In this document: piece after piece, positions 7,047-29,706 of the stretch | Layout: every line of letters begins with the position of its first letter | Numbering within the stretch: position 1 is the stretch's first letter | IMG/VR virus record: IMGVR_UViG_2778261667_000010 | Location: 1 to 32,272 of that record | DNA length: 32,272 nucleotides | Reading direction: 5' to 3' (one strand) | Source of the DNA: a virus | Taxonomy: Duplodnaviria; Heunggongvirae; Uroviricota; Caudoviricetes | Program-made: the position numbers and the translations under genes | The notes under the pieces: generated by a model | The model's database searches: none | What the model saw: only the letters and a program-made list of their open reading frames with translations | Told to the model about the DNA's origin: nothing

Positions 7047-8237
7047 TTAATTGCTGTTAACCGAGGTAACCAGACTTGCCAGGTATCTGGAAGTAATACG
7101 CTGGCGCAGGGTCAGGTTTTCGAGAGGAGGCACCGGGGTATAGTCGTAGTCGATATACAGTTTTCCGGCCTTGAGGGTTTCCGCATCATTGGCTTCTTCA
7201 CTGAACCAGCATGTGCCATCCACGATATAACCGTTGTTTTTCAGTTCGCGGAATTTGGCATTAATGCCATCAATGATGTCACGAATCAGCGTTGCGGTAA
7301 TTGGCTTATCAATAGCCCACATGTGCGCCTCGGCCATCGTGTCGGCCAGTACCTGCGCGGTGCGGGTGTAGCTTTCAAAGAGGAACAGCGGGTCATCCGA
7401 GCAGGTACGGTTACCCCAGAAGCGGAAGCCGTCGCGGCGAATCAGCGTAGTGATGCCTGACTCGTTAAGCAGGTCAGCATCAGTGCCGGACTTCTGCAAA
7501 TCCCAGAATACAGAGGCGCTGATGCCGGTAACACCATTTACCCCGACGTTGGACAGCGTTTTATGCCAGCCCTGCTCCTGGTCGATTTTGGCACGCAGCC
7601 CCAGCGCACGGGCGGTGGCATACGCGGTGGCAGTGGTACTGGTAACCGTATCCCATGCGAGGAAATCCGGCCAGATGACCATCAGCTCACGCTGGCTGAA
7701 ATTCTGACGGTAGGCTTTTGCCTCGGAAATGGTTTTACAGCCCCATGCGCTAATATACCCGAATGCATTCAGTTCCTGGCATACCGATGCCAGTGCGACG
7801 GCAACCTCTTTGGTGTCCAGTCCCGGTACGCCGAGAATGCGTGGTTTAACGCCGGTAACCGACTCAGCCCCCATCAGGGCTTTCAGTCCGGTGTACTGAC
7901 CGTTTTCGTCGGTGGTGCCGATGATATTGGAAACGGTCTGCGCGAGTTTCGTTTCTTCGTCGTCGCCGGTGCCGTCTTCCACGCGCACAACAACAGTCAC
8001 TGGTTTTGACTGGTCGGCGATGGCCTGCAACGATGCCGCCAGCGTGCCTTTTTTACCGGCCTTTGCAATTGCGCTCTGCACATTGGTAATCAGCACCGGT
8101 TTATTGAGGGGGAAGGTTTCCGCATCCGCATCGCTGGCCGTGCAGACCATGCCGACAATGGCGGTGGATACGGTGGAAATGACGCGGGTGCCGTCGTTAA
8201 TCTCCAGCACCTGCACACCGTGATGATAATCACTCAT
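7047..8237 (-). CDS. FI: contractile tail sheath protein gpFI (396 aa)
   Basis: Length and synteny match P2 FI; ATG at 8235-8237. Confidence 0.9.
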   Translation of the reverse strand: MSDYHHGVQVLEINDGTRVISTVSTAIVGMVCTASDADAETFPLNKPVLITNVQSAIAKAGKKGTLAASLQAIADQSKPVTVVVRVEDGTGDDEETKLAQTVSNIIGTTDENGQYTGLKALMGAESVTGVKPRILGVPGLDTKEVAVALASVCQELNAFGYISAWGCKTISEAKAYRQNFSQRELMVIWPDFLAWDTVTSTTATAYATARALGLRAKIDQEQGWHKTLSNVGVNGVTGISASVFWDLQKSGTDADLLNESGITTLIRRDGFRFWGNRTCSDDPLFLFESYTRTAQVLADTMAEAHMWAIDKPITATLIRDIIDGINAKFRELKNNGYIVDGTCWFSEEANDAETLKAGKLYIDYDYTPVPPLENLTLRQRITSRYLASLVTSVNSN

Positions 8238-8330
8238 CCGTTTAACTCCGTGGTTAATGGGTGAGTGGTATTTTCAGTTGTACAGGGCGTGAGACGCTAT
8301 TTGTCCTGACTGGTCAGGGGATGAAACAAC
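8238..8330 (-). promoter_or_regulatory. expected Ogr-dependent late promoter region (PF) upstream of FI
   Basis: Position only: the FI-FII-E-T-U-D operon starts here in P2; contains inverted repeat CTGAC-TG-GTCAG; exact -10 and activator site not resolved. Confidence 0.35.
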
Positions 8331-8361
8331 AGATAAAGAAAAGGCGGGCAATCCGCCCGCC
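8331..8361 (-). terminator. intrinsic terminator downstream of G
   Basis: Stem GGCGGGC/GCCCGCC (8343-8361) with loop AATCC; minus strand reads hairpin then TTTTCTTTAT. Confidence 0.6.
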
Positions 8362-8366
8362 TGTAT

Positions 8367-8897
8367 TTATTGTGGTAGTTCCGGCCATTCAGGATTTGCA
8401 GGATCCACACGACTGACCAGAACGCTGTAGCGTTCCCATGCCTCCAGTCGGCTGCGCTCCTCATCTGTTGCCATATTCAGCCTGACCGCACGCTCCAGCG
8501 GCTGAATCAATGCCTCAGCTTCTGCAAGCAAGGTTGACTTTCGGACTTCGGCTTGCTGCTGCCGTTCTGCATCCGTATATACACGTTTAATTACAGTGTC
8601 ATCTTTGAACATCCAGTTACCTGAAATATCAGCGCGACGGTTGGCGGTTATATTCGGTAACTCAACAACACTCAAGCCATCAGGGTTGAGCATTGACACA
8701 TCTTTCTCAATGCAACGAATAATACCGTTCTCGTCGTAGGCCATTTTTAAAGTGTCTGGCTGGAAATTCTTTTGTTCCTCATACCAGTTTTTACCATCAT
8801 CTGACCATAGCCAGACAATATTAAATCGTTTGGTTAATTCATATTGTTCAATAGTTTTTGGATTCCCTGCCTTAATATTTTTTAAATGCATCATCAT
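8367..8897 (-). CDS. G: tail fibre assembly chaperone gpG (about 175 aa)
   Basis: Conserved C-terminus ...[41 protein letters not shown]; three tandem ATG codons at 8889-8897, so the exact start is uncertain; TAATG overlap with the H stop. Confidence 0.85.
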
Positions 8898-11419
8898 TAA
8901 ATACTCCCTGCGTTATACCATGTGCCATTAATACAATACTGAACAGGTCTTGCCTGCGCGATATCAATTAATTCATCAGTATTACTATTGACAACACCAG
9001 TAAGAACATGCCCTGACCTGTCATGCCAGCCAGTACCATTCCACGTTGGAAGGGATGACAAACCACCTAAGCGAATACCTGTAATAAAACGTGAATTACA
9101 TTCCGCCTTGGTATAAGCGCCAATATCACCTGGCGATGGTTTATGAGCTGTCGTATAAATTTGCGCCCATCCAGACCATTGAGCATCATCTGTATCCCGC
9201 CTTGAACGGATATATGCTGGCGCGTAACCTCCACTGGTGCCGCTCCAGCCGATAAGTAATTCACCTTCTCCAACTGCGGACACCCCCGTAAGATGAAGCA
9301 CATTGCCATAGGCGTAAGGGTAGCCATTGTTATATGCCTCATACATCTGAATACCAGGCGTCCCCTTTGCACTCCCGCTTAATGCTGTGACGCGATTCCG
9401 GGATACCAGCGTATTAATATTTATATCGCCGGTGCCATCAAATTTGACACTATTAATATTTCGTGCCGTTTTCAGCTTTGTAGCTGTAGCAGCATTGCCG
9501 GACAGTTCGCCTGAAAGACCGGCGCTGAAGGTTTGTTTCGCCGCCCATGTCTGAGCTTCGTCGATAATTGGCACACGTCTTGTCGTGATCGTGCGGCTTC
9601 CCGGATTTCCTGAAATACGCACCATAAAAAAGCGGTAGTTCGCTTTACTTACAGTGCTGCGCCACACATGCATTGAGCGCCCCGTACCGGAATCATCACT
9701 CGGACCGACTGAGATGTTTATCAGGTTGCCATCAATGACGCCCCAGTCCATACCGTCGGGAATATTGGCCATGTTATCAAGCCGAACGGTTATCAGACTA
9801 CCCGGCACAAAGTCGTAGGTCTGCCAGTCCAGACTGGATAATTTTGCCACTGCGCCACCGATGCCCAGATTCAGGGGAAGTGAATACGAGGTGTAGACTT
9901 CCCGCCATTCGCTCCACGAACTGCCGGTATAGACGCGCTCAAACGTGCGACCTTTCGTTGTCGTTCCTGTCCCTGTAGTGGTATAGCGTTGCAATACAGC
10001 AACGTAATCAAAACGTCTGATAACCTCTAACACCCCTAGTAGTGTTGCACCAGATGAATCCAGCAATGGACCATTGGTTGCTTTACCCGTCACACTGTAA
10101 ATACCAGGGTCGGTTAGATCATTCAAATCACCGTCATAAAAGCTGCTTGCAGTCTGGCTGCCGATTCTCAGCCACGGTTCCCACTGTGGGTTTGATGCAT
10201 CCCAGTTTGCAGCAAGGCAGCGGACATACATGTTCCCACGGCGAGTGGTATAACGCTGGGTATAACTGAATCCACCACCTTTCATAACTTCAAGCACTCC
10301 CTGCGCGTAACTACCAGCTTCGGGATAGTGCAACGCAAGAGAAGCTAACGTACTGGAACTGTTTCTCCATGTACCCAGGTTATCCTCCCCGGCCAGAAAA
10401 TCGAGATCCATACTGTCATCCAGCGTTCTGGCCGTCCCCTGAACGTTACGCCATACGCTCCACGGACCATCTTTGCCGTTCCATTTAGCCGTCAGGTGGC
10501 GAATATAAGTATTTCCATTGCGAACAGTGTAACGCTGTGTTCCGTTAAAATTTCCTGCTGCAAATACTTCCAGGACACCAACGGCATTCTCTTCCGGGAA
10601 GTGTTTGGCTATCTGTGCATTAGTCGAAGTGCCTTTTGACCATGTACCCAGATAAGCTTTAACGGGACCAAATGTATTCAGATCAGCATCAACCGGCATT
10701 TCGCCGTTGTTTTTCATAAACGTCAGGCTGGTAACGCCAACATTGTCCAGAAAAGCGTCCTTATCTGGAATATCGCCACCGTTCTGGTCTTTCTGCAGAC
10801 GTTTCTCAGCATTGTCATAGGCTGCTTTTACTGCCTTTGGCGTTGCAGCCTGCTTTTCACTGGTGCTGTTTGTTGCACTGCTTAACTGAGTAAAACCTTT
10901 CTCTGTCAGCGTGGCGTCAGGATGGCGGCGGGACTGCTCATGCTCTGCGATTTTGTCATCGACGTAATCCTGCGTCGCCATCACCGTGCTGGCATCAATA
11001 CTCAGCTCAACGGACGCCACGTTGCTGAGAATAATCACCATGCAGCAGGTCTGCGCACGTCCGGAGCCTTCAGCCAGTTCTGGCTTATAGCTTTCTGCCA
11101 TGTTGGATACCGCAATCAGTGTTCCGGCATCGTCATACAAACCAAGCTCACGCATCCAGAAGCCGCCCACTTCGGGCGGTACAACCAGTTCAGCCACGAT
11201 ATAGTTTTTATTCTTGTTATCCACGCTGACTTTATTCAGAGCGTGACGCCAGACCTCATGCACCAGTTTCGTCTGACCGGCATCCGGCACCGGCAATTTG
11301 CCATTACCGTCACCCACGGCCATTGCAGACAGGTTTACTTTTTTCCCGCCGGGGACAGTGGCGGCAGCCAGCTTTGCGGCTCCGGCAGTAGTGATAACGG
11401 TTTTAAATTTCGTGCTCAT
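8897..11419 (-). CDS. H: tail fibre protein gpH, elongated mosaic variant (840 aa)
   Basis: N-terminal 200 aa P2 H-like ([25 protein letters not shown]...); central three-fold repeat and divergent C-terminal receptor-binding region; ATG at 11417-11419. Confidence 0.9.
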
Positions 11420-19251: not shown

Positions 19252-20106
19252 TCAGCAGTTCGTCATCAGGGCGTCACCGCCACCACCGGTGGCCTTGCTG
19301 CGGCGCTGCTGGGTCAGACTTTCGGTGTGGTCGAGACTGTTTTTCAGGCGGGTGAATGCCTGACTGGTTTCATCCGCCCTGTCAGTCACATCCTGCTTAA
19401 GTGCGGAAAAGGCGGTTTCCATCTCAGCGAGTCGCTGCTCAGTGGCGCTCAGCTTTTCCTGCACATGTTCAGCAACAGCGGTCACCGCTTCATGCACGTC
19501 ATTCAGACGGGCGTCATCGCTGGCCTGTTTGCGGCCAAAAATGGATTTCACCTTTTCGGTCAGGGCGGTGAACACGGTTTCAGGCAGGTCTTCAAATTCC
19601 AGCTCAACAGGCGTTGCCACTGAAATCAGGTTTTCAGGGCTTAATTTGAAGCGGTTCAGGGGGTTGTGTTTTGCCGTGCGGCAGAATTCCAGGTATTCCG
19701 TGCCGAGGCTTGCCGGGTCATCGGTGACGGCCAGCCCCACCAGATAACATTTGCCGGTGTTGGCAAAGTTCGGCTGAATTTCCATTGAGGTATAGACCTT
19801 CTGCGCGGCCTTGTTCATCGCGATAAGGTCATCGGTCGGGGTGATTTTCGCAAACAGCGCCCATTTGCCTTTCAGCGCCGAATCATCGTCAATCTTTTCG
19901 GCCTTCAGTTCGGCCACATCGCCATAACGTTTAAAAATGCCGTCAGGCAGGATGCCGCGCAGATGTTCCAGGTTAATACGGCAACCATAGACTCGCGGGT
20001 CAAAGGTTTCGGCCATTTCCTGAATATCCTGCGCACTGATGACACGCCCGTCACAGGTGTCACCCTCAACGCCGATACGAAAGAATTTTGAGACTTTTTT
20101 TGCCAT
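19252..20106 (-). CDS. O: capsid scaffolding protein gpO (284 aa)
   Basis: Starts MAKKVSKFFRIGVEGDT at ATG 20104-20106; the track ORF is an extension. Confidence 0.9.
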   Translation of the reverse strand: MAKKVSKFFRIGVEGDTCDGRVISAQDIQEMAETFDPRVYGCRINLEHLRGILPDGIFKRYGDVAELKAEKIDDDSALKGKWALFAKITPTDDLIAMNKAAQKVYTSMEIQPNFANTGKCYLVGLAVTDDPASLGTEYLEFCRTAKHNPLNRFKLSPENLISVATPVELEFEDLPETVFTALTEKVKSIFGRKQASDDARLNDVHEAVTAVAEHVQEKLSATEQRLAEMETAFSALKQDVTDRADETSQAFTRLKNSLDHTESLTQQRRSKATGGGGDALMTNC

Positions 20107-20279
20107 TGTCAGGAGTCCTGAATAGTGATTAGAGGAGTCACATGTCGGCATCAGTTTCCCGACGATGCGCATCCTCCGCCATCAGTCCCGGATGGCTTAT
20201 CACTGACACAACAGCACCTTAGCGAATCGCGGGGCGCGACTCAGTAGCCTTGCCGTGTATTCATCACGGCGAGGTATTC
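20107..20279. promoter_or_regulatory. divergent late promoter region between O (minus) and P (plus)
   Basis: 173-bp intergenic region between divergently transcribed capsid and terminase operons, as in P2; individual Ogr sites not resolved. Confidence 0.45.
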
Positions 20280-22052
20280 ATGACCATCACCACAGACACC
20301 ACTCTTTTACACGACCCGCGTCGTCAGGCGGCGCTGCTGTACTGGCAGGGGTTTTCCGTGCCGCAGATTGCCGCCATGTTGCAGATGAAACGCCCGACGG
20401 TGCAGAGCTGGAAACAGCGCGACGGCTGGGACAGCGTTGCCCCCATCAGCCGTGTCGAAATGAGCCTGGAAGCGCGGCTGACCCAGCTCATCATCAAACC
20501 GCAGAAAACCGGCGGTGACTTCAAGGAAATTGACCTGCTGGGACGCCAGATTGAACGACTGGCACGGGTAAACCGCTACAGCCAGACCGGCAACGAGGCA
20601 GACCTTAATCCGAACGTCGCTAACCGCAACAAAGGCGGGCGTCGCAAACCGAAAAAGAATTTTTTCAGTGACGAAGCCATCGAAAAGCTGGAGCAGATTT
20701 TCTTTGAGCAGTCTTTCGACTATCAGTTGCACTGGTATCGCGCCGGGCTTGAGCACCGCATCCGCGATATCCTGAAATCCCGCCAGATTGGCGCGACGTT
20801 TTATTTTTCCCGCGAGGCACTGCTGCGCGCCCTGAAAACCGGTCATAACCAGATTTTTCTGTCGGCCAGTAAAACGCAGGCGTATGTGTTCCGCGAATAC
20901 ATCATCGCCTTTGCCCGTCTGGTGGACGTTGACCTTACCGGTGACCCGATTGTCCTGGGCAATAACGGCGCAAAACTGATTTTTCTCGGCACCAACTCCA
21001 ACACCGCGCAGAGCCATAACGGCGACCTGTACGTCGATGAGATTTTCTGGATCCCGAATTTTCAGGTACTGCGTAAGGTGGCATCAGGTATGGCCTCACA
21101 GAGTCACCTGCGCTCGACCTATTTCTCCACCCCGTCCACGCTGGCGCACGACGCCTACCCGTTCTGGTCAGGTGAACTGTTCAACCGGGGACGTGCCAGC
21201 GCCGCCGAACGTGTGGAAATCGACGTCAGTCATAACGCCCTTGCCAGCGGGCTTCTCTGTGCGGACGGCCAGTGGCGGCAGATTGTCACCATTGAGGACG
21301 CCCTGAAAGGCGGCTGCACACTGTTCGACATTGAGCAGCTCAAACGTGAAAACAGCGCCGACGATTTTAAAAACCTGTTCATGTGTGAATTTGTTGACGA
21401 CAAGGCGTCGGTGTTCCCGTTCGAGGAGCTGCAACGCTGCATGGTCGACACGCTGGAAGAATGGGAAGACTATGCGCCGTTTGCCGCCAATCCGTTCGGC
21501 TCACGTCCGGTATGGATTGGTTACGACCCGTCACACCGTGGCGACAGCGCCGGATGCGTGGTGCTGGCACCGCCGGTGGTGGCCGGTGGCAAATTCAGAA
21601 TACTTGAGCGTCACCAGTGGAAAGGCATGGACTTTGCCACCCAGGCGGAATCCATCCGCAAACTCACCGAAAAATACAACGTCGAATACATCGGTATTGA
21701 TGCCACCGGCCTTGGTGTCGGCGTGTTCCAGCTCGTGCGCTCGTTCTATCCCGCCGCGCGCGATATCCGCTACACGCCGGAAATGAAAACCGCAATGGTG
21801 CTCAAGGCAAAAGACGTTATCCGCCGTGGCTGTCTGGAATATGACGTCAGCGCCACCGACATCACCAGCTCGTTTATGGCTATCCGCAAGACCATGACCA
21901 GCAGCGGACGCAGCGCCACCTATGAGGCCAGCCGCAGCGAGGAAGCCAGCCACGCCGACCTCGCCTGGGCGACCATGCACGCTCTGTTAAATGAGCCACT
22001 CACCGCCGGTATCAGCACCCCGCTGACATCCACCATTCTGGAGTTTTACTGA
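20280..22052 (+). CDS. P: terminase large (ATPase) subunit gpP (590 aa)
   Basis: ATG at 20280 preceded by GAGG; MTITTDTTLLHD...; the track ORF begins at an upstream TTG. Confidence 0.9.
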   Translation: MTITTDTTLLHDPRRQAALLYWQGFSVPQIAAMLQMKRPTVQSWKQRDGWDSVAPISRVEMSLEARLTQLIIKPQKTGGDFKEIDLLGRQIERLARVNRYSQTGNEADLNPNVANRNKGGRRKPKKNFFSDEAIEKLEQIFFEQSFDYQLHWYRAGLEHRIRDILKSRQIGATFYFSREALLRALKTGHNQIFLSASKTQAYVFREYIIAFARLVDVDLTGDPIVLGNNGAKLIFLGTNSNTAQSHNGDLYVDEIFWIPNFQVLRKVASGMASQSHLRSTYFSTPSTLAHDAYPFWSGELFNRGRASAAERVEIDVSHNALASGLLCADGQWRQIVTIEDALKGGCTLFDIEQLKRENSADDFKNLFMCEFVDDKASVFPFEELQRCMVDTLEEWEDYAPFAANPFGSRPVWIGYDPSHRGDSAGCVVLAPPVVAGGKFRILERHQWKGMDFATQAESIRKLTEKYNVEYIGIDATGLGVGVFQLVRSFYPAARDIRYTPEMKTAMVLKAKDVIRRGCLEYDVSATDITSSFMAIRKTMTSSGRSATYEASRSEEASHADLAWATMHALLNEPLTAGISTPLTSTILEFY

Positions 22053-23086
22053 TGAGCAAGAAAAAAGGGAAAACACCGCAACCTGCGGCAAAAACAATGA
22101 CCGCCAGCGCCCCGAAAATGGAGGCATTCACCTTTGGCGAGCCGGTGCCGGTACTCGACCGCCGTGACATTCTGGATTACGTCGAATGCATCAGTAACGG
22201 CAGATGGTATGAGCCGCCGGTCAGCTTTACCGGTCTGGCAAAAAGTCTGCGTGCTGCCGTGCATCACAGCTCACCGATTTACGTCAAACGTAATATTCTG
22301 GCTTCAACGTTTATCCCGCACCCGTGGCTTTCCCAGCAGGATTTCAGCCGCTTTGTGCTGGATTTTCTGGTGTTCGGTAATGCGTTTCTGGAAAAGCGTT
22401 ACAGCACCACCGGTAAGGTCATCAGACTGGAAACCTCACCGGCAAAATATACCCGCCGTGGCGTGGAGGAGGATGTTTACTGGTGGGTGCCGTCCTTCAA
22501 CGAACCGACAGCCTTCACGCCCGGTTCCGTGTTTCACCTGCTGGAGCCGGATATTAATCAGGAGCTGTACGGCCTGCCGGAATATCTCAGCGCCCTTAAC
22601 TCTGCCTGGCTGAATGAGTCGGCCACGCTGTTCCGCCGCAAGTATTACGAAAACGGCGCACATGCCGGATACATCATGTACGTTACCGATGCCGTGCAGG
22701 ATCGCAACGATATCGAAATGCTTCGCGAAAACATGGTGAAGTCGAAAGGCCGCAACAACTTTAAAAATCTGTTTCTCTATGCCCCACAAGGGAAAGCCGA
22801 CGGCATTAAAATTATCCCGCTCAGTGAAGTGGCGACGAAGGACGATTTTTTTAATATCAAAAAAGCCAGTGCCGCAGACCTGCTGGACGCCCACCGCATC
22901 CCCTTTCAGTTGATGGGCGGCAAGCCGGAGAACGTCGGGTCGCTGGGTGATATTGAGAAAGTGGCAAAGGTCTTTGTCCGCAATGAGCTTATCCCGTTAC
23001 AGGACAGGATCCGAGAGATAAACGGCTGGCTCGGTCAGGAGGTCATCCGCTTTAAAAACTACTCACTGGACACTGACAACGACTGA
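22052..23086 (+). CDS. Q: portal protein gpQ (344 aa)
   Basis: ATGA overlap with P stop; length and synteny match P2 Q. Confidence 0.9.
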   Translation: MSKKKGKTPQPAAKTMTASAPKMEAFTFGEPVPVLDRRDILDYVECISNGRWYEPPVSFTGLAKSLRAAVHHSSPIYVKRNILASTFIPHPWLSQQDFSRFVLDFLVFGNAFLEKRYSTTGKVIRLETSPAKYTRRGVEEDVYWWVPSFNEPTAFTPGSVFHLLEPDINQELYGLPEYLSALNSAWLNESATLFRRKYYENGAHAGYIMYVTDAVQDRNDIEMLRENMVKSKGRNNFKNLFLYAPQGKADGIKIIPLSEVATKDDFFNIKKASAADLLDAHRIPFQLMGGKPENVGSLGDIEKVAKVFVRNELIPLQDRIREINGWLGQEVIRFKNYSLDTDND

Positions 23087-23090
23087 ACAT

Positions 23091-23113
23091 CGCCGCCTGC
23101 GGGCGGCTTTTTT
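23091..23113 (+). terminator. intrinsic terminator after Q
   Basis: Stem GCCGCC/GGCGGC with loop TGCG, followed by TTTTTT (23108-23113). Confidence 0.75.
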
Positions 23114-23255
23114 ACATCCCGTCATCACGCCCTCACACGCTCACCACCGCACAAAACACCCCTTAGACACACCAACGCCCCGACGCACAATCTAAACGCC
23201 ATCACGACGCGCTCAGACGCTGAAAAAATAAAATCAGCACCACCGCCAGCGCGCA

Positions 23256-23274
23256 GTGCTTTCCCCGCCTCGCC
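23256..23274. other. cos: cos cohesive-end sequence (19 nt)
   Basis: GTGCTTTCCCCGCCTCGCC is the reverse complement of the recalled P2/P4 cohesive end GGCGAGGCGGGGAAAGCAC. Confidence 0.75.
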
Positions 23275-23368
23275 CGCCCGCTTCATGGGGCGGTTTTGAT
23301 GCAACCTCGTATTAAAGGGGACACCATAGCCCATCAAACCTCAGACTTCGCCCCTAGCTAACGTTTAT

Positions 23369-23398
23369 GAATGCAATGTAATGCAACTTAATGCAAGT
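23369..23398 (+). repeat. three 10-bp-phased direct repeats of (T/G)AATGCAA upstream of the cargo gene
   Basis: ATGCAA at 23371-23376, 23381-23386 and 23391-23396, exactly 10 bp apart, 60-90 bp upstream of the ATG at 23458. Confidence 0.7.
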
Positions 23399-23457
23399 TA
23401 TGGTAATGATAATTCTGCGTTAACAATTAAACTAATGTACCTGTAAGAGGATAAAAA

Positions 23458-25941
23458 ATGTCTGGTTTTTTCCTTGATTTAACCAAGCTTTCGCCCAGTG
23501 TAAATAGCGACACAGCGATTCCACCGCGAGATATATTTACAGCTCTACCGAGCAAAGACACCAAATTTCAATACCCTCGAGATGTGCAATCAGAGGTCTG
23601 GGAAAAATGGTATGAAGCAAGGAGAAGCCCAACCAATGTAATAAAAATGAATACCGGAAGCGGTAAAACTTCAGTTGGGTTAATCATTCTTAAAAGCTGT
23701 ATAAATGAAGGAGAAGGTCCCGCTGTATATGTTGTTCCTGACAACTATCTAGTTGAGCAAGTGGTTTTGGAGGCTAATCAACTTGGTATACCTGTAACTC
23801 AAGATGAGAGGTCCCCCAAATTTATTGCAGGTAAAGAAATTTTAGTTACAAATATATTCAAAGTGGTTAATGGACGTTCTGCATTTGGCGTTGGAGATGA
23901 TGGACAAAAAATACCAATAGGTTCTATAATAATTGACGATGCTCACGCTTGCCTTTCTTCAATTGAAGAACAATTCTCCATTAGCATTCAAAAAAATAAC
24001 CCTGCCTATGATAAATTATTCAGAATTTTTGAAAATTCACTAATGACACAAGCTGGTGCAAAAACACTAGAGATAAAATCCGGCGATAGAAATGCTTATG
24101 TGAGAGTTCCATTTTGGAAATGGCAAGAAAGCATAAATGATATAATGACAATCTTGTTAGAAAATAAAGACCATGATGACTTGAGTTTCAAATGGCCATT
24201 AATAAAAGACAATCTAATATTATCGAAATGCGTTGTAAGTGCTTCCAAAATAGAGATATCACCTCATTGCATACCAATCCAAATGATCCCAAGCCTATCA
24301 AACGCAAGAAGAAAAATATTCATGACAGCTACTCTTGTCGATGAATCCATTCTAGCGAGCCACTTCGGAATAACGGATGAATCACTCTCTAATCCGATAA
24401 CACCAAAAACAATTGGTGATATTGGTGATAGAATGATACTAATGCCTCAGGTTATAAACCCTAGTCTTTCTGATGTAGATATCAAAGCTATGTGCAAGGA
24501 GATATCCTCCAAACATAATGTTGTTGTAATTGTACCATCCGATTACAGAACTAGATTTTGGCAAGATGTTGCAGACAGAATATTAGATAAAAATACAATT
24601 TATCAAGGTGTACAAGAATTAAGGACACAACATGTTGGCTTAGTAGTCCTAGTTAATAGATATGATGGTATTGATTTACCAAATACCGCATGTCGTCTAT
24701 TAGTAATAGATGGACTTCCTGACGTTCGTAGACTAATAGATAAAGTCTCACAAAGCTTATTGCTTGGAAGCGAAAAAACCAAAGATGAAATTATCCAGAA
24801 AATTGAACAAGGAATGGGGCGAGGAGTGAGATCAAGCGACGACTTCTGCGGAGTGATCTTACTTGGCAAAGCATTAAATGGCGCTGTTTTCCTTGGCTCC
24901 TCCTTAGAAAGGTTTTCTCCAGCAACGAAAGCACAAATTCAACTTTCACAGCAATTGGTATCGATACTGCCGGATACAACTATTGATTCAATCAAAGGTG
25001 CTCTTGATTATTGTCTGTTACGCAATTCTGACTGGGTCTCAAAAAGCAAAGGTATATTGACTGGCTTAACATTGGAAAATAAGCAGATTGACCAGCATAC
25101 TATAAACAAAAGATTGGCATATGACTTCGCATCACGAAATATGTTTCAACAAGCCGCTTTAACTCTAAAAAATGATAGTAGTACAGCTGACAAAGTTTAT
25201 AAGGGTTATCTAAAAGAACATGCTGCGGAATATGTAAACTTATATGACAAATCTGAAGCTCAGATATTGCTTCAGTCTGCATCAAACGATAACTATCGGG
25301 TATTAAAACCACTAATCGGCGTAACATATAATAGACTTAATGGTGCGGCACTTGAACAGGCCAGGGAATGTAGCTCCTATCTCAGAAGTAATTTTGAATC
25401 GGCGAATCAAGTCGTTGTGCATACTAATTCAATAATAGAAAACCTTATTTTCTCCGAGGGCACATCGAATCCCTTCGAAGATGCTATCGAAAAAGTTGCA
25501 TATTTGATCGGTTTTCGTAGCCAACGGCCAGAAAATGATACAGGTAAAGGACCTGACAATTTATGGGCAATGGGAGAAAACAATTATCTAGTAATTGAAT
25601 GCAAAAATGGAGCAACCGCAGAAAGAATAAGTAAGCATGACTGCAATCAGTTAAATGGGTCGGGTGCATGGTTCAGAAACATGTATGATCAAACTGCTAC
25701 CGCCACACCTATAATGATACATCACTCTAACATGCCTGAATATGCCGCAACACTAAACGAAGGGTCTCGAATAATGACCATAAATGATCTTGAACGTTTT
25801 AAAGCATCTATCCTCAGTTTTATCACGGCCATTTGTACAAGTGATAAACGACACGATGAGATATTTATAAGAGAACAATTGATCACATGTAAATTACGTG
25901 CATCAGACATAGTTGAAACCTATACGCGAAACCCTCGTTAA
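23458..25941 (+). CDS. cargo protein (827 aa): SF2 helicase-like ATPase with C-terminal PD-(D/E)xK-like nuclease motif; candidate anti-phage defence protein
   Basis: ATG 23458 with RBS AGAGGA 7 nt upstream; visibly AT-rich codon usage unlike flanking phage genes. Motif I NTGSGKT (23653-23670), motif II DDAH (23935-23946), motif V-like YDGIDLP, motif VI QGMGRGVR (24808-24831); C-terminal GPD (D700, 25555-25557) ... IECK (E714/K716, 25597-25605). Confidence 0.85.
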   Translation: MSGFFLDLTKLSPSVNSDTAIPPRDIFTALPSKDTKFQYPRDVQSEVWEKWYEARRSPTNVIKMNTGSGKTSVGLIILKSCINEGEGPAVYVVPDNYLVEQVVLEANQLGIPVTQDERSPKFIAGKEILVTNIFKVVNGRSAFGVGDDGQKIPIGSIIIDDAHACLSSIEEQFSISIQKNNPAYDKLFRIFENSLMTQAGAKTLEIKSGDRNAYVRVPFWKWQESINDIMTILLENKDHDDLSFKWPLIKDNLILSKCVVSASKIEISPHCIPIQMIPSLSNARRKIFMTATLVDESILASHFGITDESLSNPITPKTIGDIGDRMILMPQVINPSLSDVDIKAMCKEISSKHNVVVIVPSDYRTRFWQDVADRILDKNTIYQGVQELRTQHVGLVVLVNRYDGIDLPNTACRLLVIDGLPDVRRLIDKVSQSLLLGSEKTKDEIIQKIEQGMGRGVRSSDDFCGVILLGKALNGAVFLGSSLERFSPATKAQIQLSQQLVSILPDTTIDSIKGALDYCLLRNSDWVSKSKGILTGLTLENKQIDQHTINKRLAYDFASRNMFQQAALTLKNDSSTADKVYKGYLKEHAAEYVNLYDKSEAQILLQSASNDNYRVLKPLIGVTYNRLNGAALEQARECSSYLRSNFESANQVVVHTNSIIENLIFSEGTSNPFEDAIEKVAYLIGFRSQRPENDTGKGPDNLWAMGENNYLVIECKNGATAERISKHDCNQLNGSGAWFRNMYDQTATATPIMIHHSNMPEYAATLNEGSRIMTINDLERFKASILSFITAICTSDKRHDEIFIREQLITCKLRASDIVETYTRNPR

Positions 25942-25945
25942 ACAG

Positions 25946-25980
25946 TAAAAGACCACCTCCTAAGGAGGTGGTCCTTGTAT
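25946..25980 (+). terminator. stem-loop terminator after the cargo gene, possibly bidirectional
   Basis: Perfect 10-bp stem GACCACCTCC/GGAGGTGGTC with loop TAA (25951-25973), 9 nt after the stop; short T-runs on both strands. Confidence 0.6.
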
Positions 25981-26181
25981 AATAAAAAGAACCAGTTTTT
26001 ATTGTTAATAATACAATTCTCGAATTTCAACATAGACTTATTGTACCACCAGTAAAATCATCAATATTAATATATAGAAAAAAAAGAAATGTCGATTATT
26101 TGTACGTAGCGTAATCATATTAACATATACAGATAAACAGCAACCTTACCATTATGCAACCAATCTAAAACATTATGTTTA

Positions 26182-28461
26182 TTACTCTGAATAACCAGAA
26201 AACCCACTCCACTCATCTACACTAGGATATGAAAATTGCTTTTCATTGTAATTGACGATCGCACCGCGTACTAACGCCTCAAGCTCCCATCGCTGCGGCC
26301 TGATACCGTTTTGAGCAAGGTCAACACGGATACGGGTGATTTGCAATCGTTCAGACCGGGTCAGTCTGGCCGATGGTGCAATTTCATGTGGTTTTAACGG
26401 GCTTCCGTTTCTTTGCTGACGACTTGGCGTTCTCCGACCGTGTTTTAATGCACCCCTGAGCGCCCTCACTACCTCCGGGTCATTCCATTCGATAACACCG
26501 TCATCAACCAGATTTAGCACTGCTGCGGCGTGCTCAGAAGGTGTGGGAGCCGGTAACGAAGTATCACCACCGGTGAGCTTTCCACAGTTATTGACAGGAC
26601 TCCGAGGCGCGGCGATGCCGCTTTTTAAAGTCAAAGGCTCAACGACCGGAACTTTCGGCACAATGCGCCAGTCCGTCGTTCTGGTGATATGAATATGACG
26701 CGCGCCGAGATGCGGCGCGTAAATGCCGACCACTCTCTCGACTTCTTCCTCGTACTCGTTAACTTCATCCGACGGACTACGGGCAACCCTGACAGTCTGA
26801 CAATCGCGCGGAACATTTGCCCCACCCTGCGCGCTGATATACAACGCAAAATCACCACTGTCTGCGGCAGCGCGTGCAGCCTCGACGCGTTCGTCAAACT
26901 CATCAGCAATGCTGACGCCGCGAGGCAATTTGCGTAGTTCACGGTAAGCCCCCATTGTCGGCAGGCCAACCGTTTTAAATTGCGGAATGCGCCACGTTGA
27001 CGCCCATGCGGTAACAGCCGCGGCAGTGTCTTTCAGCGGCCTGCCGGTATCGTTATCGAGCTGACCATCCAGTGCATAGCCGTCGATATTTTTCGAAATG
27101 TATTTCGCGATATATCCCGCAGCACCGCCCCGGTTAAGGTGTTTTGCCTGAAAACGGTTTCGCGCGGCTCCTCTTTCGTCGCCATCCTCTTTGAGCGCAT
27201 AGCGACGCATGATTTCGATAATCTGGTTACGCTGGCGTGGATTACAAAAAAGCATCATATGCCAGTGCGGCGTTCCGTCGTGGTGTGGCTCGACGACTCG
27301 CAAACCGTAGACCTGTAAATCATTATCCTTGAATGCCGTGCGCATCAGGCTCCAGATACGGCAGAGATAACGCTGCGCATCCTTTGGATTAAATGCCTCA
27401 TCATTCCAGCCGTGATTAAGCTGGACGGTTTTATTTTCGCCTTTTCCAACCTGACGTGTCGGGTGATACTTTGACGGCGCGGTAAGCGTGATAAACATCC
27501 CCACATCACCCTCTGAGGCGGCGTAACGCTCAATACCGGCAATGGTGTTCATCAGCTCCATCCGGCGAATTTCAGGATTAGAAATACTGCCCATCACCTT
27601 ACTGATAAGGTCGATGCGCTCGCCGGTTTCCCTGTTTTCAAGGTCACACGATTTAAGAAATTCCAGATTTGCCTGGCGGCGCGCACGCACATCACGAATG
27701 GCATGTTTACTGGCATAAGGAGAACAGTCTTTATTCACCTCCCCGACAGCAATCAGTAACGCCTCATGCCAGCGCATACGCTGGCCTTTAAGCTGATGAG
27801 TCCACCACTCATCGTTAAACAGACGGGCAATGGCAGAATATGCCTGCCTCGTGGTCATCTGTCCTTTACGGTATTTTTTCCAGTAGAGAGGGGAAATATT
27901 GAAAGCACGTGCAGCGCCAGCAACATGACCATAGAGGTGAGCCTGCGCCTCATCCGTAAACAGCGATTCTTTCTCGCCATGCGCATCCACCCAGGCATCG
28001 CAGAGTTCCTCATACATCATGAAAAGCTGTGATGAGATACGGGCGGCAAACTTTTTCAGCTCCTTGTCATTCATCCCCGGCAGGCGCGCATACTGGTCGC
28101 GCTCTGCCAGAAACAGCAACGACGCGTCGGTGTTCATTTCATGGCGCTGATTCACGCGCTCAATGCGCGGCCATAAACGACGCTGAAAAGTGGATGTGAG
28201 GAAATAAAACCCGTGCACCGGGCTTTTATTGCGCCGGATGTAGTCATAGCGTGAAGTAAACAGCGAGCGCAAAAAGTAAGGCAGGCGGTTAATCGTGGAT
28301 AAAACACCTTGCACCTGACGCATCTCGTCACGTGTAAGGGGTCTTTCGTGCCCGACAGCCTCGCGTGGCGCGTTCCATGCATAAGCACCGGTAAACGCCT
28401 TACCGGTGCCTGCGGCAAATGCTGACGGAGGGACAAAACGCCCGGAGGCTTTAACGGCCAT
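26182..28461 (-). CDS. A: replication initiation protein gpA (rolling-circle nickase, about 759 aa)
   Basis: Near-identical to recalled P2 gpA (MAVKASGRFVPPSAF...); ATG at 28459-28461. The track start at 28503 is a TTG extension. Confidence 0.9.
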   Translation of the reverse strand: MAVKASGRFVPPSAFAAGTGKAFTGAYAWNAPREAVGHERPLTRDEMRQVQGVLSTINRLPYFLRSLFTSRYDYIRRNKSPVHGFYFLTSTFQRRLWPRIERVNQRHEMNTDASLLFLAERDQYARLPGMNDKELKKFAARISSQLFMMYEELCDAWVDAHGEKESLFTDEAQAHLYGHVAGAARAFNISPLYWKKYRKGQMTTRQAYSAIARLFNDEWWTHQLKGQRMRWHEALLIAVGEVNKDCSPYASKHAIRDVRARRQANLEFLKSCDLENRETGERIDLISKVMGSISNPEIRRMELMNTIAGIERYAASEGDVGMFITLTAPSKYHPTRQVGKGENKTVQLNHGWNDEAFNPKDAQRYLCRIWSLMRTAFKDNDLQVYGLRVVEPHHDGTPHWHMMLFCNPRQRNQIIEIMRRYALKEDGDERGAARNRFQAKHLNRGGAAGYIAKYISKNIDGYALDGQLDNDTGRPLKDTAAAVTAWASTWRIPQFKTVGLPTMGAYRELRKLPRGVSIADEFDERVEAARAAADSGDFALYISAQGGANVPRDCQTVRVARSPSDEVNEYEEEVERVVGIYAPHLGARHIHITRTTDWRIVPKVPVVEPLTLKSGIAAPRSPVNNCGKLTGGDTSLPAPTPSEHAAAVLNLVDDGVIEWNDPEVVRALRGALKHGRRTPSRQQRNGSPLKPHEIAPSARLTRSERLQITRIRVDLAQNGIRPQRWELEALVRGAIVNYNEKQFSYPSVDEWSGFSGYSE

Positions 28462-28726
28462 ATGAGCCAAAAGCCTCAGAACAACGCTTGCTGAGTTGCT
28501 CAACCTGCGCGTTTAAATCAGCAAAAGACTTTGCGCTTCCGGTCAGAATATCGTGATGCATCAGGCCGGAAACGAGCTGGCTTAATTTCGGGTAATAACC
28601 AACCACCGCCAGCCATTCCTGACCGACATTTTTACCGCTTTCCGCTCTCTTTTTCTCGTGGAGAATAAACTGAAAGCTGTCACTGGTAACGACATAACGT
28701 TCGCCAATTTCAATACGAATACTCAT
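28451..28726 (-). CDS. small early-operon protein (91 aa), orf83-like
   Basis: ATG at 28724-28726, ATGA overlap with upstream ORF; position immediately upstream of A. Confidence 0.7.
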   Translation of the reverse strand: MSIRIEIGERYVVTSDSFQFILHEKKRAESGKNVGQEWLAVVGYYPKLSQLVSGLMHHDILTGSAKSFADLNAQVEQLSKRCSEAFGSYGR

Positions 28727-28947
28727 GCCATTCTCCGGTAATGCTTGTTTTTTGCTTCAAAGACTGACTGACAGGAAACACAACGCGTGGCTGACGGGTA
28801 AGCCGCACGACGGGCAGCAGGTATTGGCGCGTCACACTCTTCGCAAACCAGCGCAGAAGCACCGCAATGTTTTACCCTTGCCGCGTTAATCTGGCGCTCC
28901 AGTAATTCAGCTTGTTGTTCCTGAATAAAATCTACGTTGTCCGGCAT
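28723..28947 (-). CDS. DksA/TraR-family C4 zinc-finger protein (74 aa)
   Basis: CEECDAPIPAARRAAYPSATRCVSC fits the DksA/TraR signature C-[DES]-x-C-x3-I-x3-R-x4-P-x4-C-x2-C; translationally coupled overlaps at both ends. Confidence 0.8.
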   Translation of the reverse strand: MPDNVDFIQEQQAELLERQINAARVKHCGASALVCEECDAPIPAARRAAYPSATRCVSCQSVFEAKNKHYRRMA

Positions 28948-29237
28948 TACCAGTTCCTTTTGTCGTTCAGTTTCTTAAATTCATCAGCGCAATAGCTGGT
29001 GACTTCTGTCGTTAATTTTGTCAGTTCATCCACGGAGGAAATTTGCTTATGAAATACAGCGCGTTTAACAAGTAAATTGACCACATCAGACAGGAGATTT
29101 AATTTATCCGCATAAATGGCTATAGTTGATTCAACCATATCCCCAGTGTTTTTATCGCGTTTAATATCAGCTAGAGACAAATCACCATTTTTCATAACTG
29201 AAATCTTCAGCCAGTTATTAAGCAATATATTTTTCAT
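28947..29237 (-). CDS. hypothetical early-operon protein (96 aa), AT-rich
   Basis: ATG at 29235-29237, ATGA overlaps both neighbours; AT-rich, Lys/Asn/Leu-rich product; no motif recognised. Confidence 0.6.
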   Translation of the reverse strand: MKNILLNNWLKISVMKNGDLSLADIKRDKNTGDMVESTIAIYADKLNLLSDVVNLLVKRAVFHKQISSVDELTKLTTEVTSYCADEFKKLNDKRNW

Positions 29238-29479
29238 TCGCTATATGCCCTCTCCGCAGAATCAATCATTTCCCGGCCATTATCGGTAATACAGAAACCT
29301 TCTCTTGATTTGGTCACAAGCCCCCATTTCCCCATTGCTATAAATGCTTTTTCCACACGACTAGGCCAGGAGCGGAAGACATCGCTTGATGGATGTAGTG
29401 GAGTCTTGTCATCTAATTTTTTAAGTAATGAAAGTTGATAATCTGTTAAGCGTTTCCTGAACCATTTTGTATTTGTCAT
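29234..29479 (-). CDS. hypothetical early-operon protein (81 aa)
   Basis: ATG at 29477-29479 (the track start is a TTG extension); overlaps the downstream ORF. Confidence 0.6.
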   Translation of the reverse strand: MTNTKWFRKRLTDYQLSLLKKLDDKTPLHPSSDVFRSWPSRVEKAFIAMGKWGLVTKSREGFCITDNGREMIDSAERAYSE

Positions 29480-29493
29480 CTCCAACTTTCCTG

Positions 29494-29706
29494 TTATTTA
29501 TTGAGTCCTAGATTATGGAATTTGGCAGACTCCTGACTGAGCAACTCGACTATCTCCACGCGGGATAACTCCGCCTTTGTGATGTGGCGAATCATGGCAT
29601 CAAGATGAGACGAAAAGCGCGTTGCTGCGTCGGCCTGTGCTTCGGTTCTGGCCTGTTGCAGCATTAATGCGTATTTACCGCACTGATTTTCAGAAACTGT
29701 ATGCAT
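29494..29706 (-). CDS. hypothetical early-operon protein (about 70 aa), orf80-like
   Basis: ATG at 29704-29706 with GGAG upstream; the track ORF starts at an upstream GTG. Confidence 0.55.

What the first reader, a model, noticed from the sequence alone, without database searches (positions are those of the whole stretch)
23458..25941. Single-gene helicase-nuclease cargo in the cos-to-A defence hotspot
In P2 the interval between cos/Q and gene A carries tin and old, and in P2-like prophages this site is a recognised hotspot for anti-phage cargo. Here it holds one 827-aa ORF that is visibly AT-rich against GC-richer phage flanks, with its own RBS and a perfect 10-bp terminator stem, which points to horizontally acquired cargo. 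The protein reads as an SF2 helicase core: motif I NTGSGKT (res 66-71), motif Ia-like VYVVPDNYLVEQ, motif II IIIDDAHA (res 160-163), motif V-like NRYDGIDLP and motif VI QGMGRGVR (res 451-458). A possible motif III (MTATL, res 290-292) lies about 130 residues after motif II, which implies an insertion in the first RecA-like domain. A roughly 230-residue helical region with no recognised motif follows, then a C-terminal PD-(D/E)xK-like signature GPD(700)-x13-IE(714)CK(716). It is not OLD-like (no ABC ATPase or Toprim pattern). The architecture resembles Hna/Nhi-type helicase-nuclease fusions or a fused Hachiman-like pair, but I cannot assign a family from sequence alone, so it may be a new variant or an undescribed system.
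Basis: partly seen in the sequence, partly recalled or inferred. Interest (0 to 1): 0.85.

Follow-up and report, generated by a model that had tools for sequence, protein, structure and literature searches.

The report
Hna defence gene in P2 prophage
The 827-residue helicase-nuclease gene between cos and gene A of this P2-like E. coli prophage belongs to Hna, a characterised single-protein abortive-infection anti-phage system, and sits in a well-known prophage defence hotspot, so it is real but ordinary.

Summary
There is one intact 827-aa ORF (23458-25941, +) inside a 2,945-bp AT-rich module (23304-26248, GC 0.37 against 0.53).

The novelty claim does not hold. The protein is an Hna family member:
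- It matches S. meliloti Hna (PDB 9yhn/9ykj/10uj) at E=5e-121 (phmmer), and 2e-129 at 32% identity over 751 residues (BLASTP).
- S. meliloti Hna and this protein hit the same PADLOC model ("PDC-S28") end to end with near-equal scores (1020 and 1056 bits).
- The AlphaFold model's best PDB match is the Hna cryo-EM monomer (E=1.7e-62, TM 0.69). XPD/DinG follow at about 1e-11.
- Every residue shown by mutagenesis to matter for catalysis in S. meliloti Hna is conserved: Q motif R41/Q44, Walker A K70/T71, Walker B D160/D161, nuclease P699/D700/E714/K716.

The likely mechanism, inferred by homology, is an ATP-bound auto-inhibited dimer that a phage SSB releases. The freed 3'-5' ssDNA exonuclease then causes abortive infection.

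The gpA-gpQ hotspot was described in 2022. E. coli Hna homologues have been tested, and the identical module is in 70 of 5,426 complete E. coli genomes. Interest is low.

The parts
22052..23086 (+). Portal protein gene (P2 gpQ homologue); left conserved flank of the hotspot
   Evidence: ORF. 97.4% DNA identity to P2 across Q and cos. RefSeq annotation 'phage portal protein' in a 99.4%-identical prophage.
23256..23274 (-). cos cohesive-end 19-mer (reverse complement of P2 cosL/cosR GGCGAGGCGGGGAAAGCAC)
   Evidence: Exact match found by script against the annotated P2 record.
23304..26248 (.). AT-rich cargo module (2,945 bp, GC 0.366) that replaces P2 orf91-tin-old and the last ~22 codons of gene A
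   Evidence: P2 homology stops at 23303 and resumes at 26249. GC. Both non-coding ends of the module occur in exactly the same 70 of 5,426 E. coli genomes at >=99% identity.
23370..23396 (+). Three AATGCAA repeats in exact 10-bp phase, 62-88 bp upstream of the start codon; possible regulatory or promoter element, function unknown
   Evidence: Read and located by script. Absent upstream of the 80%-identical Pectobacterium homologue. The promoter scan lists no sigma-70-like site on either strand anywhere in 23304-23457.
23445..23451 (+). Shine-Dalgarno sequence AAGAGGA, 6 nt before the ATG
   Evidence: Sequence.
23458..25941 (+). hna: 827-aa Hna-family helicase-like ATPase / PD-(D/E)xK nuclease (92.4 kDa)
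   Evidence: ORF. PADLOC PDC-S28 1056 bits over residues 6-825. PDB Hna E=4.7e-121. BLASTP to S. meliloti Hna 32% identity over 751 aa, E=2e-129. Foldseek top hit 9yhn.
23545..23601 (+). N-terminal loop plus Q motif (residues 30-48: LPSKDTKFQYPRDVQSEVW). R41/Q44 equal S. meliloti R36/Q39 (ATP binding). The preceding loop corresponds to the S. meliloti dimerisation / predicted SSB-docking loop but has a different sequence.
   Evidence: Alignment, invariants. The roles of the S. meliloti residues come. The model has low pLDDT at 33-38.
23650..23670 (+). Walker A / motif I NTGSGKT (residues 65-71; K70/T71 = S. meliloti K72/T73)
23935..23946 (+). Walker B / motif II DDAH (residues 160-163; D160/D161 = S. 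meliloti D162/D163)
24808..24831 (+). Motif VI QGMGRGVR (residues 451-458) within the Helicase_C_2 (XPD/DinG-type) RecA2 domain
   Evidence: Pfam Helicase_C_2 at 400-471. Invariant Q451 G452 G454 R455 R458.
25438..25938 (+). [quoted passage not shown]
   Evidence: Model secondary structure H670-683, E687-689, E701-706, E709-715, H726-742, E748-754. Aligned to the S. meliloti NUC domain.
25552..25605 (+). Nuclease catalytic signature P699-D700 ... E714-C715-K716 (= S. meliloti P712/D713/E727/K729; the K729A mutant has no nuclease activity)
   Evidence: Mutagenesis in S. meliloti Hna is reported in PMC13381803.
25951..25973 (+). Perfect 10-bp GC-rich hairpin 10 nt after the stop codon, between the convergent genes hna and A; a likely transcription stop, but without a U-tract on the + strand
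26182..28503 (-). Replication endonuclease gene (P2 gpA homologue); right conserved flank. Its last ~22 codons (26182-26248) lie inside the swapped module. The 5' coordinate is the mechanical ORF start; RefSeq annotates a shorter product.
   Evidence: ORF. 96.6% identity to P2 A from 26249 onward. RefSeq annotation 'replication endonuclease'.

Best explanation
The gene encodes an Hna (helicase-nuclease abortive infection) protein. Hna is a single-protein anti-phage system, and here it is carried as a lysogenic-conversion 'moron' in the cos-proximal gpQ-gpA hotspot of a P2-like prophage, in the place of P2's old and tin.

Shown here: family membership, conservation of all catalytic residues, a single-gene module, and the hotspot location.

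Inferred by homology from the biochemistry and cryo-EM of S. meliloti Hna (PMC13381803) and from the genetics of Sather et al. 2023: in uninfected lysogens the protein binds ATP through its XPD/DinG-like SF2 domains (Q motif R41/Q44, K70/T71, D160/D161). It then sits as an auto-inhibited homodimer whose C-terminal PD-(D/E)xK domain is disengaged. It does not unwind duplex DNA. [quoted passage not shown] This releases a Mg2+-dependent 3'-to-5' ssDNA exonuclease (D700/E714/K716). Uncontrolled degradation of ssDNA at replication or recombination intermediates stops phage replication and kills or arrests the cell, so no progeny are released. The lysogen population, and with it the prophage, is protected.
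For: phmmer against PDB: the only strong hit is 10uj/9yhn/9ykj, E=4.7e-121, covering residues 60-792. Those entries are S. meliloti Hna.

BLASTP to pSymA Hna gives 32% identity and 52% positives over 751 aa, E=2e-129.

Both proteins match the PADLOC model PDLC04986 end to end, at 1055.7 and 1020 bits.

AF2 model (pLDDT 81.8): Foldseek top hits are the Hna monomer (E=1.7e-62, TM 0.69, 840 columns) and the Hna dimer chains. XPD/DinG/CasDinG follow about 50 orders of magnitude weaker.

All residues functionally tested in S. meliloti Hna are invariant: R41, Q44, K70, T71, D160, D161, P699, D700, E714, K716.

There is no four-cysteine Fe-S signature, as reported for Hna.

The module holds a single gene: no other credible ORF, and it is co-inherited as a unit in 70 genomes.

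The location is the hotspot between gpA and gpQ described by Rousset et al., with 1,650 arrangements in 18,150 loci. It replaces old/tin of P2.

The literature states that Hna proteins from both S. meliloti and E. coli are activated by phage SSB. A purified 'EcHna' is a monomer/dimer mix of 97/194 kDa. Hna is routinely called in natural E. coli isolates.
Against: No experiment was done on this protein. Identity to the biochemically characterised orthologue is only 32%.

The three S. meliloti residues mutated to break the dimer (T30/D31/P34) are not conserved. This clade has its own invariant loop (L30 P31 x K33 ... Y39 P40 R41 D42 V43 Q44). The dimer interface and the trigger could therefore differ.

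A purified E. coli Hna (accession not recoverable, so possibly a different lineage) was inactive on all DNA substrates tested in one study, whereas S. meliloti Hna degrades ssDNA when ATP is absent.

I could not read Sather et al. 2023, so I cannot say whether the E. coli homologue tested there is this protein.

The promoter scan listed no sigma-70-like site anywhere in 23304-23457, so expression in the lysogen is assumed, not shown.
Confidence: 0.88

Rival explanations
1. It is an Hna-family protein, but this enterobacterial/cyanobacterial clade is regulated or triggered differently from S. meliloti Hna. It might sense a different phage protein, or sense DNA damage or ssDNA directly, or use a different oligomeric switch, because the N-terminal interface loop is clade-specific.
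For: S. meliloti T30/D31/P34 are not conserved. The clade has its own invariant loop motif LPxK..YPRDVQ. This loop has low confidence in the model (pLDDT <50 at residues 33-38). EcHna was inactive in vitro on a DNA panel. The authors of the mechanism paper themselves expect orthologues to differ in how they recognise phage factors.
Against: The Q motif immediately after the loop, and every ATPase and nuclease residue, are invariant. EcHna still forms monomers and dimers. A secondary source says E. coli Hna is also SSB-activated.
Confidence: 0.2
2. It is a DinG/XPD-type DNA repair or replication helicase that the prophage uses for its own replication or recombination, not a defence gene.
For: Pfam finds only generic helicase domains. 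RefSeq names it 'DEAD/DEAH box helicase family protein'. XPD/DinG are the next-best structural matches.
Against: It lies in non-essential, hypervariable cargo DNA that is absent from P2 itself and from about 97% of the E. coli genomes that carry matching P2-like flanks (70 of 2,159). Its GC content is foreign. It lacks the Fe-S cluster cysteines. It carries a fused PD-(D/E)xK nuclease. The match to Hna is about 50 orders of magnitude better than to any DinG/XPD. Close homologues sit in unrelated integrative islands. S. meliloti Hna has no unwinding activity.
Confidence: 0.02
3. It is a fused Hachiman-like (HamA-HamB) or Nhi-like nuclease-helicase system that senses DNA damage or replication forks and uses true helicase activity to license the nuclease.
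For: It shares the general logic of a helicase-like ATPase plus a PD-(D/E)xK nuclease. SSB has been reported as a trigger for Hachiman, Nhi and Hna alike.
Against: There were no PADLOC or Pfam hits to HamA/DUF1837, HamB or Nhi models at E<=1. The ATPase is XPD/DinG-type (Helicase_C_2), not Ski2-like (HamB) or SF1 (Nhi). The nuclease is C-terminal, not N-terminal as in Nhi.
Confidence: 0.02

Closest known systems
Hna of Sinorhizobium meliloti pSymA (845 aa; Sather et al. 2023; cryo-EM 9YHN/9YKJ/10UJ, Hooper et al. 2026, PMC13381803)
   Same: The length and domain order match: HEL1 with a reduced Arch insertion, HEL2, a helical linker, and a C-terminal PD-(D/E)xK domain. Identity is 32% over 751 aa, E=2e-129. 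Both match the same PADLOC profile. It is the top structural match. The Q motif, Walker A and B, motif VI and the P-D...E-x-K residues are all conserved. There is no Fe-S cluster. It is a single-gene system carried on a mobile element.
   Different: Identity is only 32%. The N-terminal loop differs: S. meliloti has a 7-residue insertion after the Q-motif helix, and T30/D31/P34 are not conserved here. The host is a P2-like prophage of E. coli rather than a rhizobial megaplasmid. The target phages and the exact trigger are untested here.
E. coli Hna homologues already tested (Sather et al. 2023 as cited in PMC10732053; 'EcHna' in bioRxiv 10.1101/2025.07.10.664194)
   Same: Same species and same family. 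The reported monomer mass of 97 kDa is compatible with the 92.4 kDa calculated here plus a tag, within mass-photometry error.
   Different: The accessions could not be retrieved, so identity with this protein is unknown. Escherichia also carries a second, plasmid-borne Hna lineage less than about 36% identical to this one.
PADLOC candidate PDC-S28 / PHROG 16128
   Same: Full-length matches (1056 bits; 1977 bits over 827/827 positions). These are catalogue entries for this same family.
   Different: Both are labelled candidate or 'unknown function'. The link to Hna was established here by showing that S. meliloti Hna hits the same PDC-S28 model.
XPD/DinG-family SF2 proteins, including CRISPR type IV CasDinG and 'ExoDinG' of S. 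aureus
   Same: The RecA1/Arch/RecA2 topology and the Helicase_C_2 domain. The mechanism paper describes ExoDinG proteins as 3'-5' ssDNA exonucleases, like Hna; its preprint version added that they lack helicase activity.
   Different: Sequence and structure similarity is far weaker (Foldseek ~1e-11, TM 0.3-0.4). There is no Fe-S cluster. From background knowledge rather than a test here, the ExoDinG nuclease is an N-terminal DEDD-type domain, not a C-terminal PD-(D/E)xK.
P2 old and tin (the cargo at this locus in phage P2)
   Same: The same genomic slot between cos/gpQ and gpA. Both are lysogenic-conversion genes that exclude other phages, and each has its own AT-rich module.
   Different: The proteins are unrelated. 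From background knowledge, Old is an ABC-ATPase plus Toprim nuclease; no such domains were found here.

Membership tests
Hna | Full-length sequence homology to the experimentally validated S. meliloti Hna | tested here: met
   phmmer E=4.7e-121 over residues 60-792. BLASTP 32% identity over 751 aa, E=2e-129.
Hna | Same family profile as validated Hna, matched end to end | tested here: met
   PADLOC PDLC04986: window protein 1055.7 bits (residues 6-825), S. meliloti Hna 1020 bits (residues 1-842).
Hna | N-terminal SF2 (XPD/DinG-like) ATPase with Q motif, Walker A, Walker B and motif VI | tested here: met
   R41/Q44, K70/T71, D160/D161 and Q451-R458 are invariant. Pfam ResIII/DEAD plus Helicase_C_2.
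Hna | C-terminal PD-(D/E)xK nuclease with catalytic P-D ... E-x-K (S. meliloti P712/D713/E727/K729) | tested here: met
   P699/D700/E714/K716 align and are invariant. [quoted passage not shown]
Hna | Overall fold equals the Hna cryo-EM structure | tested here: met
   Foldseek: 9yhn E=1.7e-62, TM 0.69/0.69, 840 columns; next family (XPD) 1.6e-11.
Hna | Reduced Arch domain and no Fe-S cluster | tested here: met
   The insertion at residues ~181-284 lies between motifs II and III. No cluster of four Cys in RecA1: the cysteines are at 81, 165, 258, 271 and so on, and of those in RecA1 only C165 and C258 are invariant.
Hna | Acts as a single-gene system | tested here: met
   It is the only credible ORF in the 2,945-bp module. 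Distant homologues in other islands have unrelated neighbours. Functional sufficiency itself was not tested.
Hna | Dimerisation-loop residues (S. meliloti T30/D31/P34) that mediate ATP-dependent auto-inhibition and predicted SSB docking | tested here: inconclusive
   The residues are not conserved. The clade has a different invariant loop. EcHna nevertheless dimerises.
Hna | Phage resistance by abortive infection, triggered by phage SSB; 3'-5' ssDNA exonuclease inhibited by ATP | not testable with these tools
   These need plaque, infection-dynamics and biochemical assays. They are known only for S. meliloti Hna, and partly for an E. coli homologue.
Hachiman (HamAB) fused form | HamA/DUF1837 nuclease plus Ski2-like HamB helicase | tested here: not met
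   No HamA, HamB or DUF1837 hit in PADLOC or Pfam at E<=1. The helicase is of the XPD/DinG type.
Nhi | N-terminal nuclease plus C-terminal SF1 helicase (~610 aa) | tested here: not met
   No Nhi profile hit. The domain order is reversed, and this is an SF2 protein of 827 aa.
OLD family (P2 Old) | ABC-type ATPase plus Toprim nuclease | tested here: not met
   No such Pfam, NCBIfam or PADLOC hits.

The most novel reading that the evidence does not exclude
The P2-borne enterobacterial Hna clade has a clade-specific N-terminal interface loop (LPxK..YPRDVQ instead of the S. meliloti T30/D31/P34 loop). It may therefore recognise a different phage trigger, or use a different auto-inhibition switch, from the one worked out for S. 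meliloti Hna. That would make it a mechanistic sub-type of Hna rather than a simple orthologue.
Probability: 0.2. Interest if true: 0.35.

Novelty: already known. Interest (0 to 1): 0.12.

Why it matters
It matters little for discovery. The result is another example of the 'guns for hire' pattern, in which a characterised single-gene defence system (Hna) rides in a known prophage hotspot. Three practical points follow.
1. The generic RefSeq name 'DEAD/DEAH box helicase family protein' (WP_000012516.1 and relatives), the PADLOC label PDC-S28 and PHROG 16128 'unknown function' can all be read as Hna.
2. The exact 2,945-bp exchange unit and its junctions are defined: 29 bp beyond cos on one side, and inside the 3' end of gene A on the other.
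3. The clade-specific N-terminal loop is a concrete place to look for differences in trigger specificity among Hna orthologues.

Tried and rejected
- Megablast of the gene against the phage collection found nothing. tblastn there found one 30%-identical Salmonella record. The gene is therefore not in sequenced free P2-like phages of that collection.
- NCBIfam gave only sub-threshold N-terminal helicase hits.
- A literature search for 'PDC-S28' gave one unrelated survey.
- I could not read Sather et al. 2023. Searches for the accession WP_000012516 and for 'Hna' with 'P2-like' found nothing.
- No supplementary tables are held for the EcHna preprint or for the 2026 NAR hotspot survey. One supplement query, on Rousset et al. 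2022, failed on syntax. I therefore could not establish whether the tested E. coli Hna is this protein.
- The promoter scan found no sigma-70-like site in the 154 bp upstream of the gene, so I do not name a promoter.
- The terminator reading is downgraded. The hairpin is strong but lacks a + strand U-tract.
- I considered and rejected OLD-like, Hachiman-fusion, Nhi and housekeeping DinG/XPD readings (see the membership tests).
- I asked whether the upstream AATGCAA repeats travel with the gene. They do not: DNA homology to the Pectobacterium copy is confined to 23446-25902.
Full report
**1. Observation**

It sits in a sharp compositional trough. 500-bp windows between 23501 and 26000 have GC 0.35-0.38, against 0.52-0.60 on both sides. 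Computed directly, the gene is 0.374 GC, the whole foreign segment is 0.366, and the rest of the window is 0.535.

A Shine-Dalgarno sequence, AAGAGGA, lies 6 nt before the ATG. Ten nucleotides after the stop codon there is a perfect 10-bp GC-rich hairpin (25951-25973). It has dG -19.7 kcal/mol and z = -5.1 against dinucleotide shuffles. No U-tract follows it on the + strand, and the consensus scan lists it only on the - strand. It may stop transcription between the convergent genes, but it is not a textbook intrinsic terminator for this gene.

Apart from T290, each is invariant in alignments of 17 and 35 homologues spanning 31-98% identity. T290 is invariant only in the 35-sequence set, because S. 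meliloti Hna has S there.

**2. Genomic setting**

The flanks are P2. A script comparison with the annotated P2 genome gave these results:
- 97.4% identity from window 20073 to 23303. This covers the terminase gene P, the portal gene Q and the exact cos 19-mer at 23256-23274.
- 96.6% identity from 26249 to 28494, which is gene A.

The non-P2 segment is therefore 23304-26248 (2,945 bp). It replaces P2 positions 30247-33545: the end of A, orf91, tin, old and the old promoter region. The right-hand junction lies inside gene A, so the last ~22 codons of the replication endonuclease belong to the swapped module.

No other credible ORF lies in the module; the only others are AT-rich ORFs of 26-33 codons.

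In 5,426 complete E. coli genomes, 2,159 carry matches to the flanks but only 70 carry the whole locus. The two non-coding ends of the module (23304-23457 and 25942-26248) occur in exactly those 70 genomes at >=99% identity. The module therefore behaves as one unit.

A RefSeq record that is 99.4% identical across window 23000-26500 shows the complete P2-like prophage next to cpxP. In that record the gene is named only 'DEAD/DEAH box helicase family protein', WP_000012516.1, which differs from the window protein at three residues.

Rousset et al. 2022 described this gpA-gpQ interval as a defence hotspot with 1,650 gene arrangements in 18,150 occurrences.

**3. Identity of the protein**

Generic libraries see only helicase domains:
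- Pfam: ResIII/DEAD at 40-172 and Helicase_C_2 at 400-471.
- NCBIfam: nothing above cut-off.

Specialised libraries give full-length matches to unnamed entries:
- PADLOC 'PDC-S28': 1055.7 bits over residues 6-825.
- PHROG 16128, 'unknown function': 1977 bits over 827/827 positions.

The decisive result came from the sequence search of the PDB. One strong hit, E=4.7e-121, aligned residues 60-792 to an 845-residue chain present in entries 10uj, 9yhn and 9ykj. [quoted passage not shown] The third entry, 10uj, holds the same chain. The chain is Hna of Sinorhizobium meliloti.

I recovered the full S. meliloti protein from pSymA and made three comparisons:
- BLASTP gives 32% identity and 52% positives over 751 residues, E=2e-129.
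- S. meliloti Hna matches the same PADLOC model, PDLC04986, end to end at 1020 bits. 'PDC-S28' is therefore the Hna family under a provisional name.
- An AlphaFold2 model built from 35 homologues (mean pLDDT 81.8) finds the Hna monomer 9yhn as best PDB match, at E=1.7e-62 and TM 0.69 over 840 columns. The two chains of the Hna dimer follow. Only then come XPD, DinG and CasDinG, at about 1e-11 and TM 0.3-0.4.

**4. Residue-level check against the experimental work**

| Role in S. meliloti Hna | S. meliloti residues | Window protein |
|---|---|---|
| Q motif | R36/Q39 | R41/Q44 |
| Walker A | K72/T73 | K70/T71 |
| Walker B | D162/D163 | D160/D161 |
| Nuclease | P712/D713/E727/K729 | P699/D700/E714/K716 |

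R36A/Q39A abolishes the ATPase, and K729A abolishes the nuclease. In the window protein every one of these residues is invariant across the family alignment.

As reported for Hna, there is no four-cysteine Fe-S signature.

The one feature that does not carry over is the N-terminal loop. Its residues T30/D31/P34 were mutated to break the S. meliloti dimer. Here, and in all closer homologues, the loop reads L30-P31-x-K33 ... Y39-P40-R41-D42-V43-Q44 and is itself invariant. It is also the least confident part of the model.

**5. Most likely mechanism (inferred by homology, not shown here)**

According to PMC13381803:
- S. meliloti Hna does not unwind DNA.
- It is a Mg2+-dependent 3'-5' ssDNA exonuclease.
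- ATP binding drives it into an auto-inhibited homodimer in which the nuclease domain is disengaged.
- A phage-encoded SSB competes at the dimer interface and releases the nuclease even when ATP is present.
- SSB escape variants no longer activate it.

Sather et al. 2023, as summarised, showed that the outcome in cells is abortive infection. A secondary source states that Hna proteins from both S. meliloti and E. coli respond to phage SSB. A purified 'EcHna' is a monomer/dimer mixture.

I therefore assign the same scheme to this prophage gene. It is a surveillance dimer in the lysogen, activated by the SSB of a superinfecting phage. It then degrades ssDNA and aborts the infection, which protects the lysogenic population and so the prophage.

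Two caveats apply:
- The divergent interface loop means the trigger specificity, or the details of the switch, may differ.
- The EcHna preparation was inactive on all DNA substrates tested. Its accession is unknown, and Escherichia has at least one other, plasmid-borne Hna lineage less than about 36% identical to this protein.

**6. Alternatives**

- A housekeeping or phage-replication DinG/XPD helicase is very unlikely. The gene is dispensable cargo absent from P2 and from about 97% of the E. coli genomes with matching P2-like flanks. Its composition is foreign, it lacks the Fe-S cluster, and it carries a fused nuclease. Its homologues sit in unrelated integrative islands in Pectobacterium (80% identity) and Pseudomonas aeruginosa (54% identity).
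- Fused Hachiman and Nhi fail their defining features. There are no HamA/DUF1837, HamB or Nhi profile hits, the helicase class is wrong, and the domain order is wrong.
- OLD is excluded, because there is no ABC-ATPase or Toprim domain.

**7. Distribution**

The family is very large. At least 3,954 cluster representatives reach E<=1e-5 among the 8,000 candidates scored, with many cyanobacterial, Pseudomonas and Legionella proteins at about 53% identity. There are plasmid-borne copies in Legionella, Agrobacterium, Enterococcus, Streptomyces and others.

The exact protein is already in public databases (for example BBQ23308.1) on at least 156 contigs. Its 90% cluster spans E. coli, E. albertii and Salmonella. 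DefenseFinder-based studies already list Hna in natural E. coli isolates.

DNA homology with the Pectobacterium copy is confined to 23446-25902, essentially the coding sequence. The gene has therefore been moved between mobile elements without its regulatory region.

**8. Verdict**

The feature is a member of an already characterised family in an already described hotspot.

Novelty is 'already known' and interest is low (0.12). The only residual point of interest is the clade-specific N-terminal interface loop. It could mean a different trigger or switch (probability about 0.2), and it deserves modest interest if true.

Noticed in passing
window 23370-23396: Three AATGCAA repeats in exact 10-bp phase (starts at 23370, 23380, 23390), 62-88 bp upstream of the hna start codon and inside the cargo module. 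They are absent upstream of the 80%-identical Pectobacterium homologue. The scan found no sigma-70-like promoter in this 154-bp leader. They could be a regulator-binding array or an unusual promoter.
   Followed up: partly
window 26182-26248: The right recombination junction of the cargo module lies inside gene A. The last ~22 codons of the replication endonuclease are AT-rich, non-P2 DNA that is co-inherited with hna, so the C-terminal tail of gpA is exchanged along with the defence cargo.
   Followed up: partly
window 23545-23601 (residues 30-48): The N-terminal loop that forms the S. meliloti Hna dimer / predicted SSB-docking interface (T30/D31/P34) is replaced here by a different motif, LPxK..YPRDVQ, which is invariant within the clade. 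This is a candidate determinant of trigger specificity.
   Followed up: partly
window 25951-25973: The strong 10-bp hairpin after hna has no U-tract on the + strand, and the scan flags it as terminator-like only on the - strand. It lies between the convergent genes hna and A and may act on either or both.
   Followed up: partly
window 8501-9000 and about 7770-10340: A second AT-rich dip (GC 0.40). Offsetting to the annotated near-identical prophage L002 places it in the tail-fibre region, which carries a recombinase (DNA invertase) gene, alternative tail-fibre assembly genes and a truncated tail protein. This looks like an invertible host-range segment at the P2 Z/fun position.
   Followed up: no
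window 28947-29237 (- strand): A third AT-rich dip (GC 0.376 at 29001-29500) coincides with a 96-aa ORF annotated DUF5405 in the related prophage (the P2 orf81 position). It may be another small variable gene in the early operon.
   Followed up: no
L004 5001-7490; L007 5001-7484: Hna homologues at 80% identity (Pectobacterium) and 54% identity (P. aeruginosa) sit next to integrases in non-P2 integrative islands with unrelated neighbours. The same single gene is therefore cargo of several different mobile-element types.
   Followed up: partly
L001 5434-6360: Immediately downstream of S. meliloti hna on pSymA there is a 308-aa ORF on the same strand, 79 bp after the hna stop. It was not examined, and it has no counterpart in the E. 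coli module.
   Followed up: no
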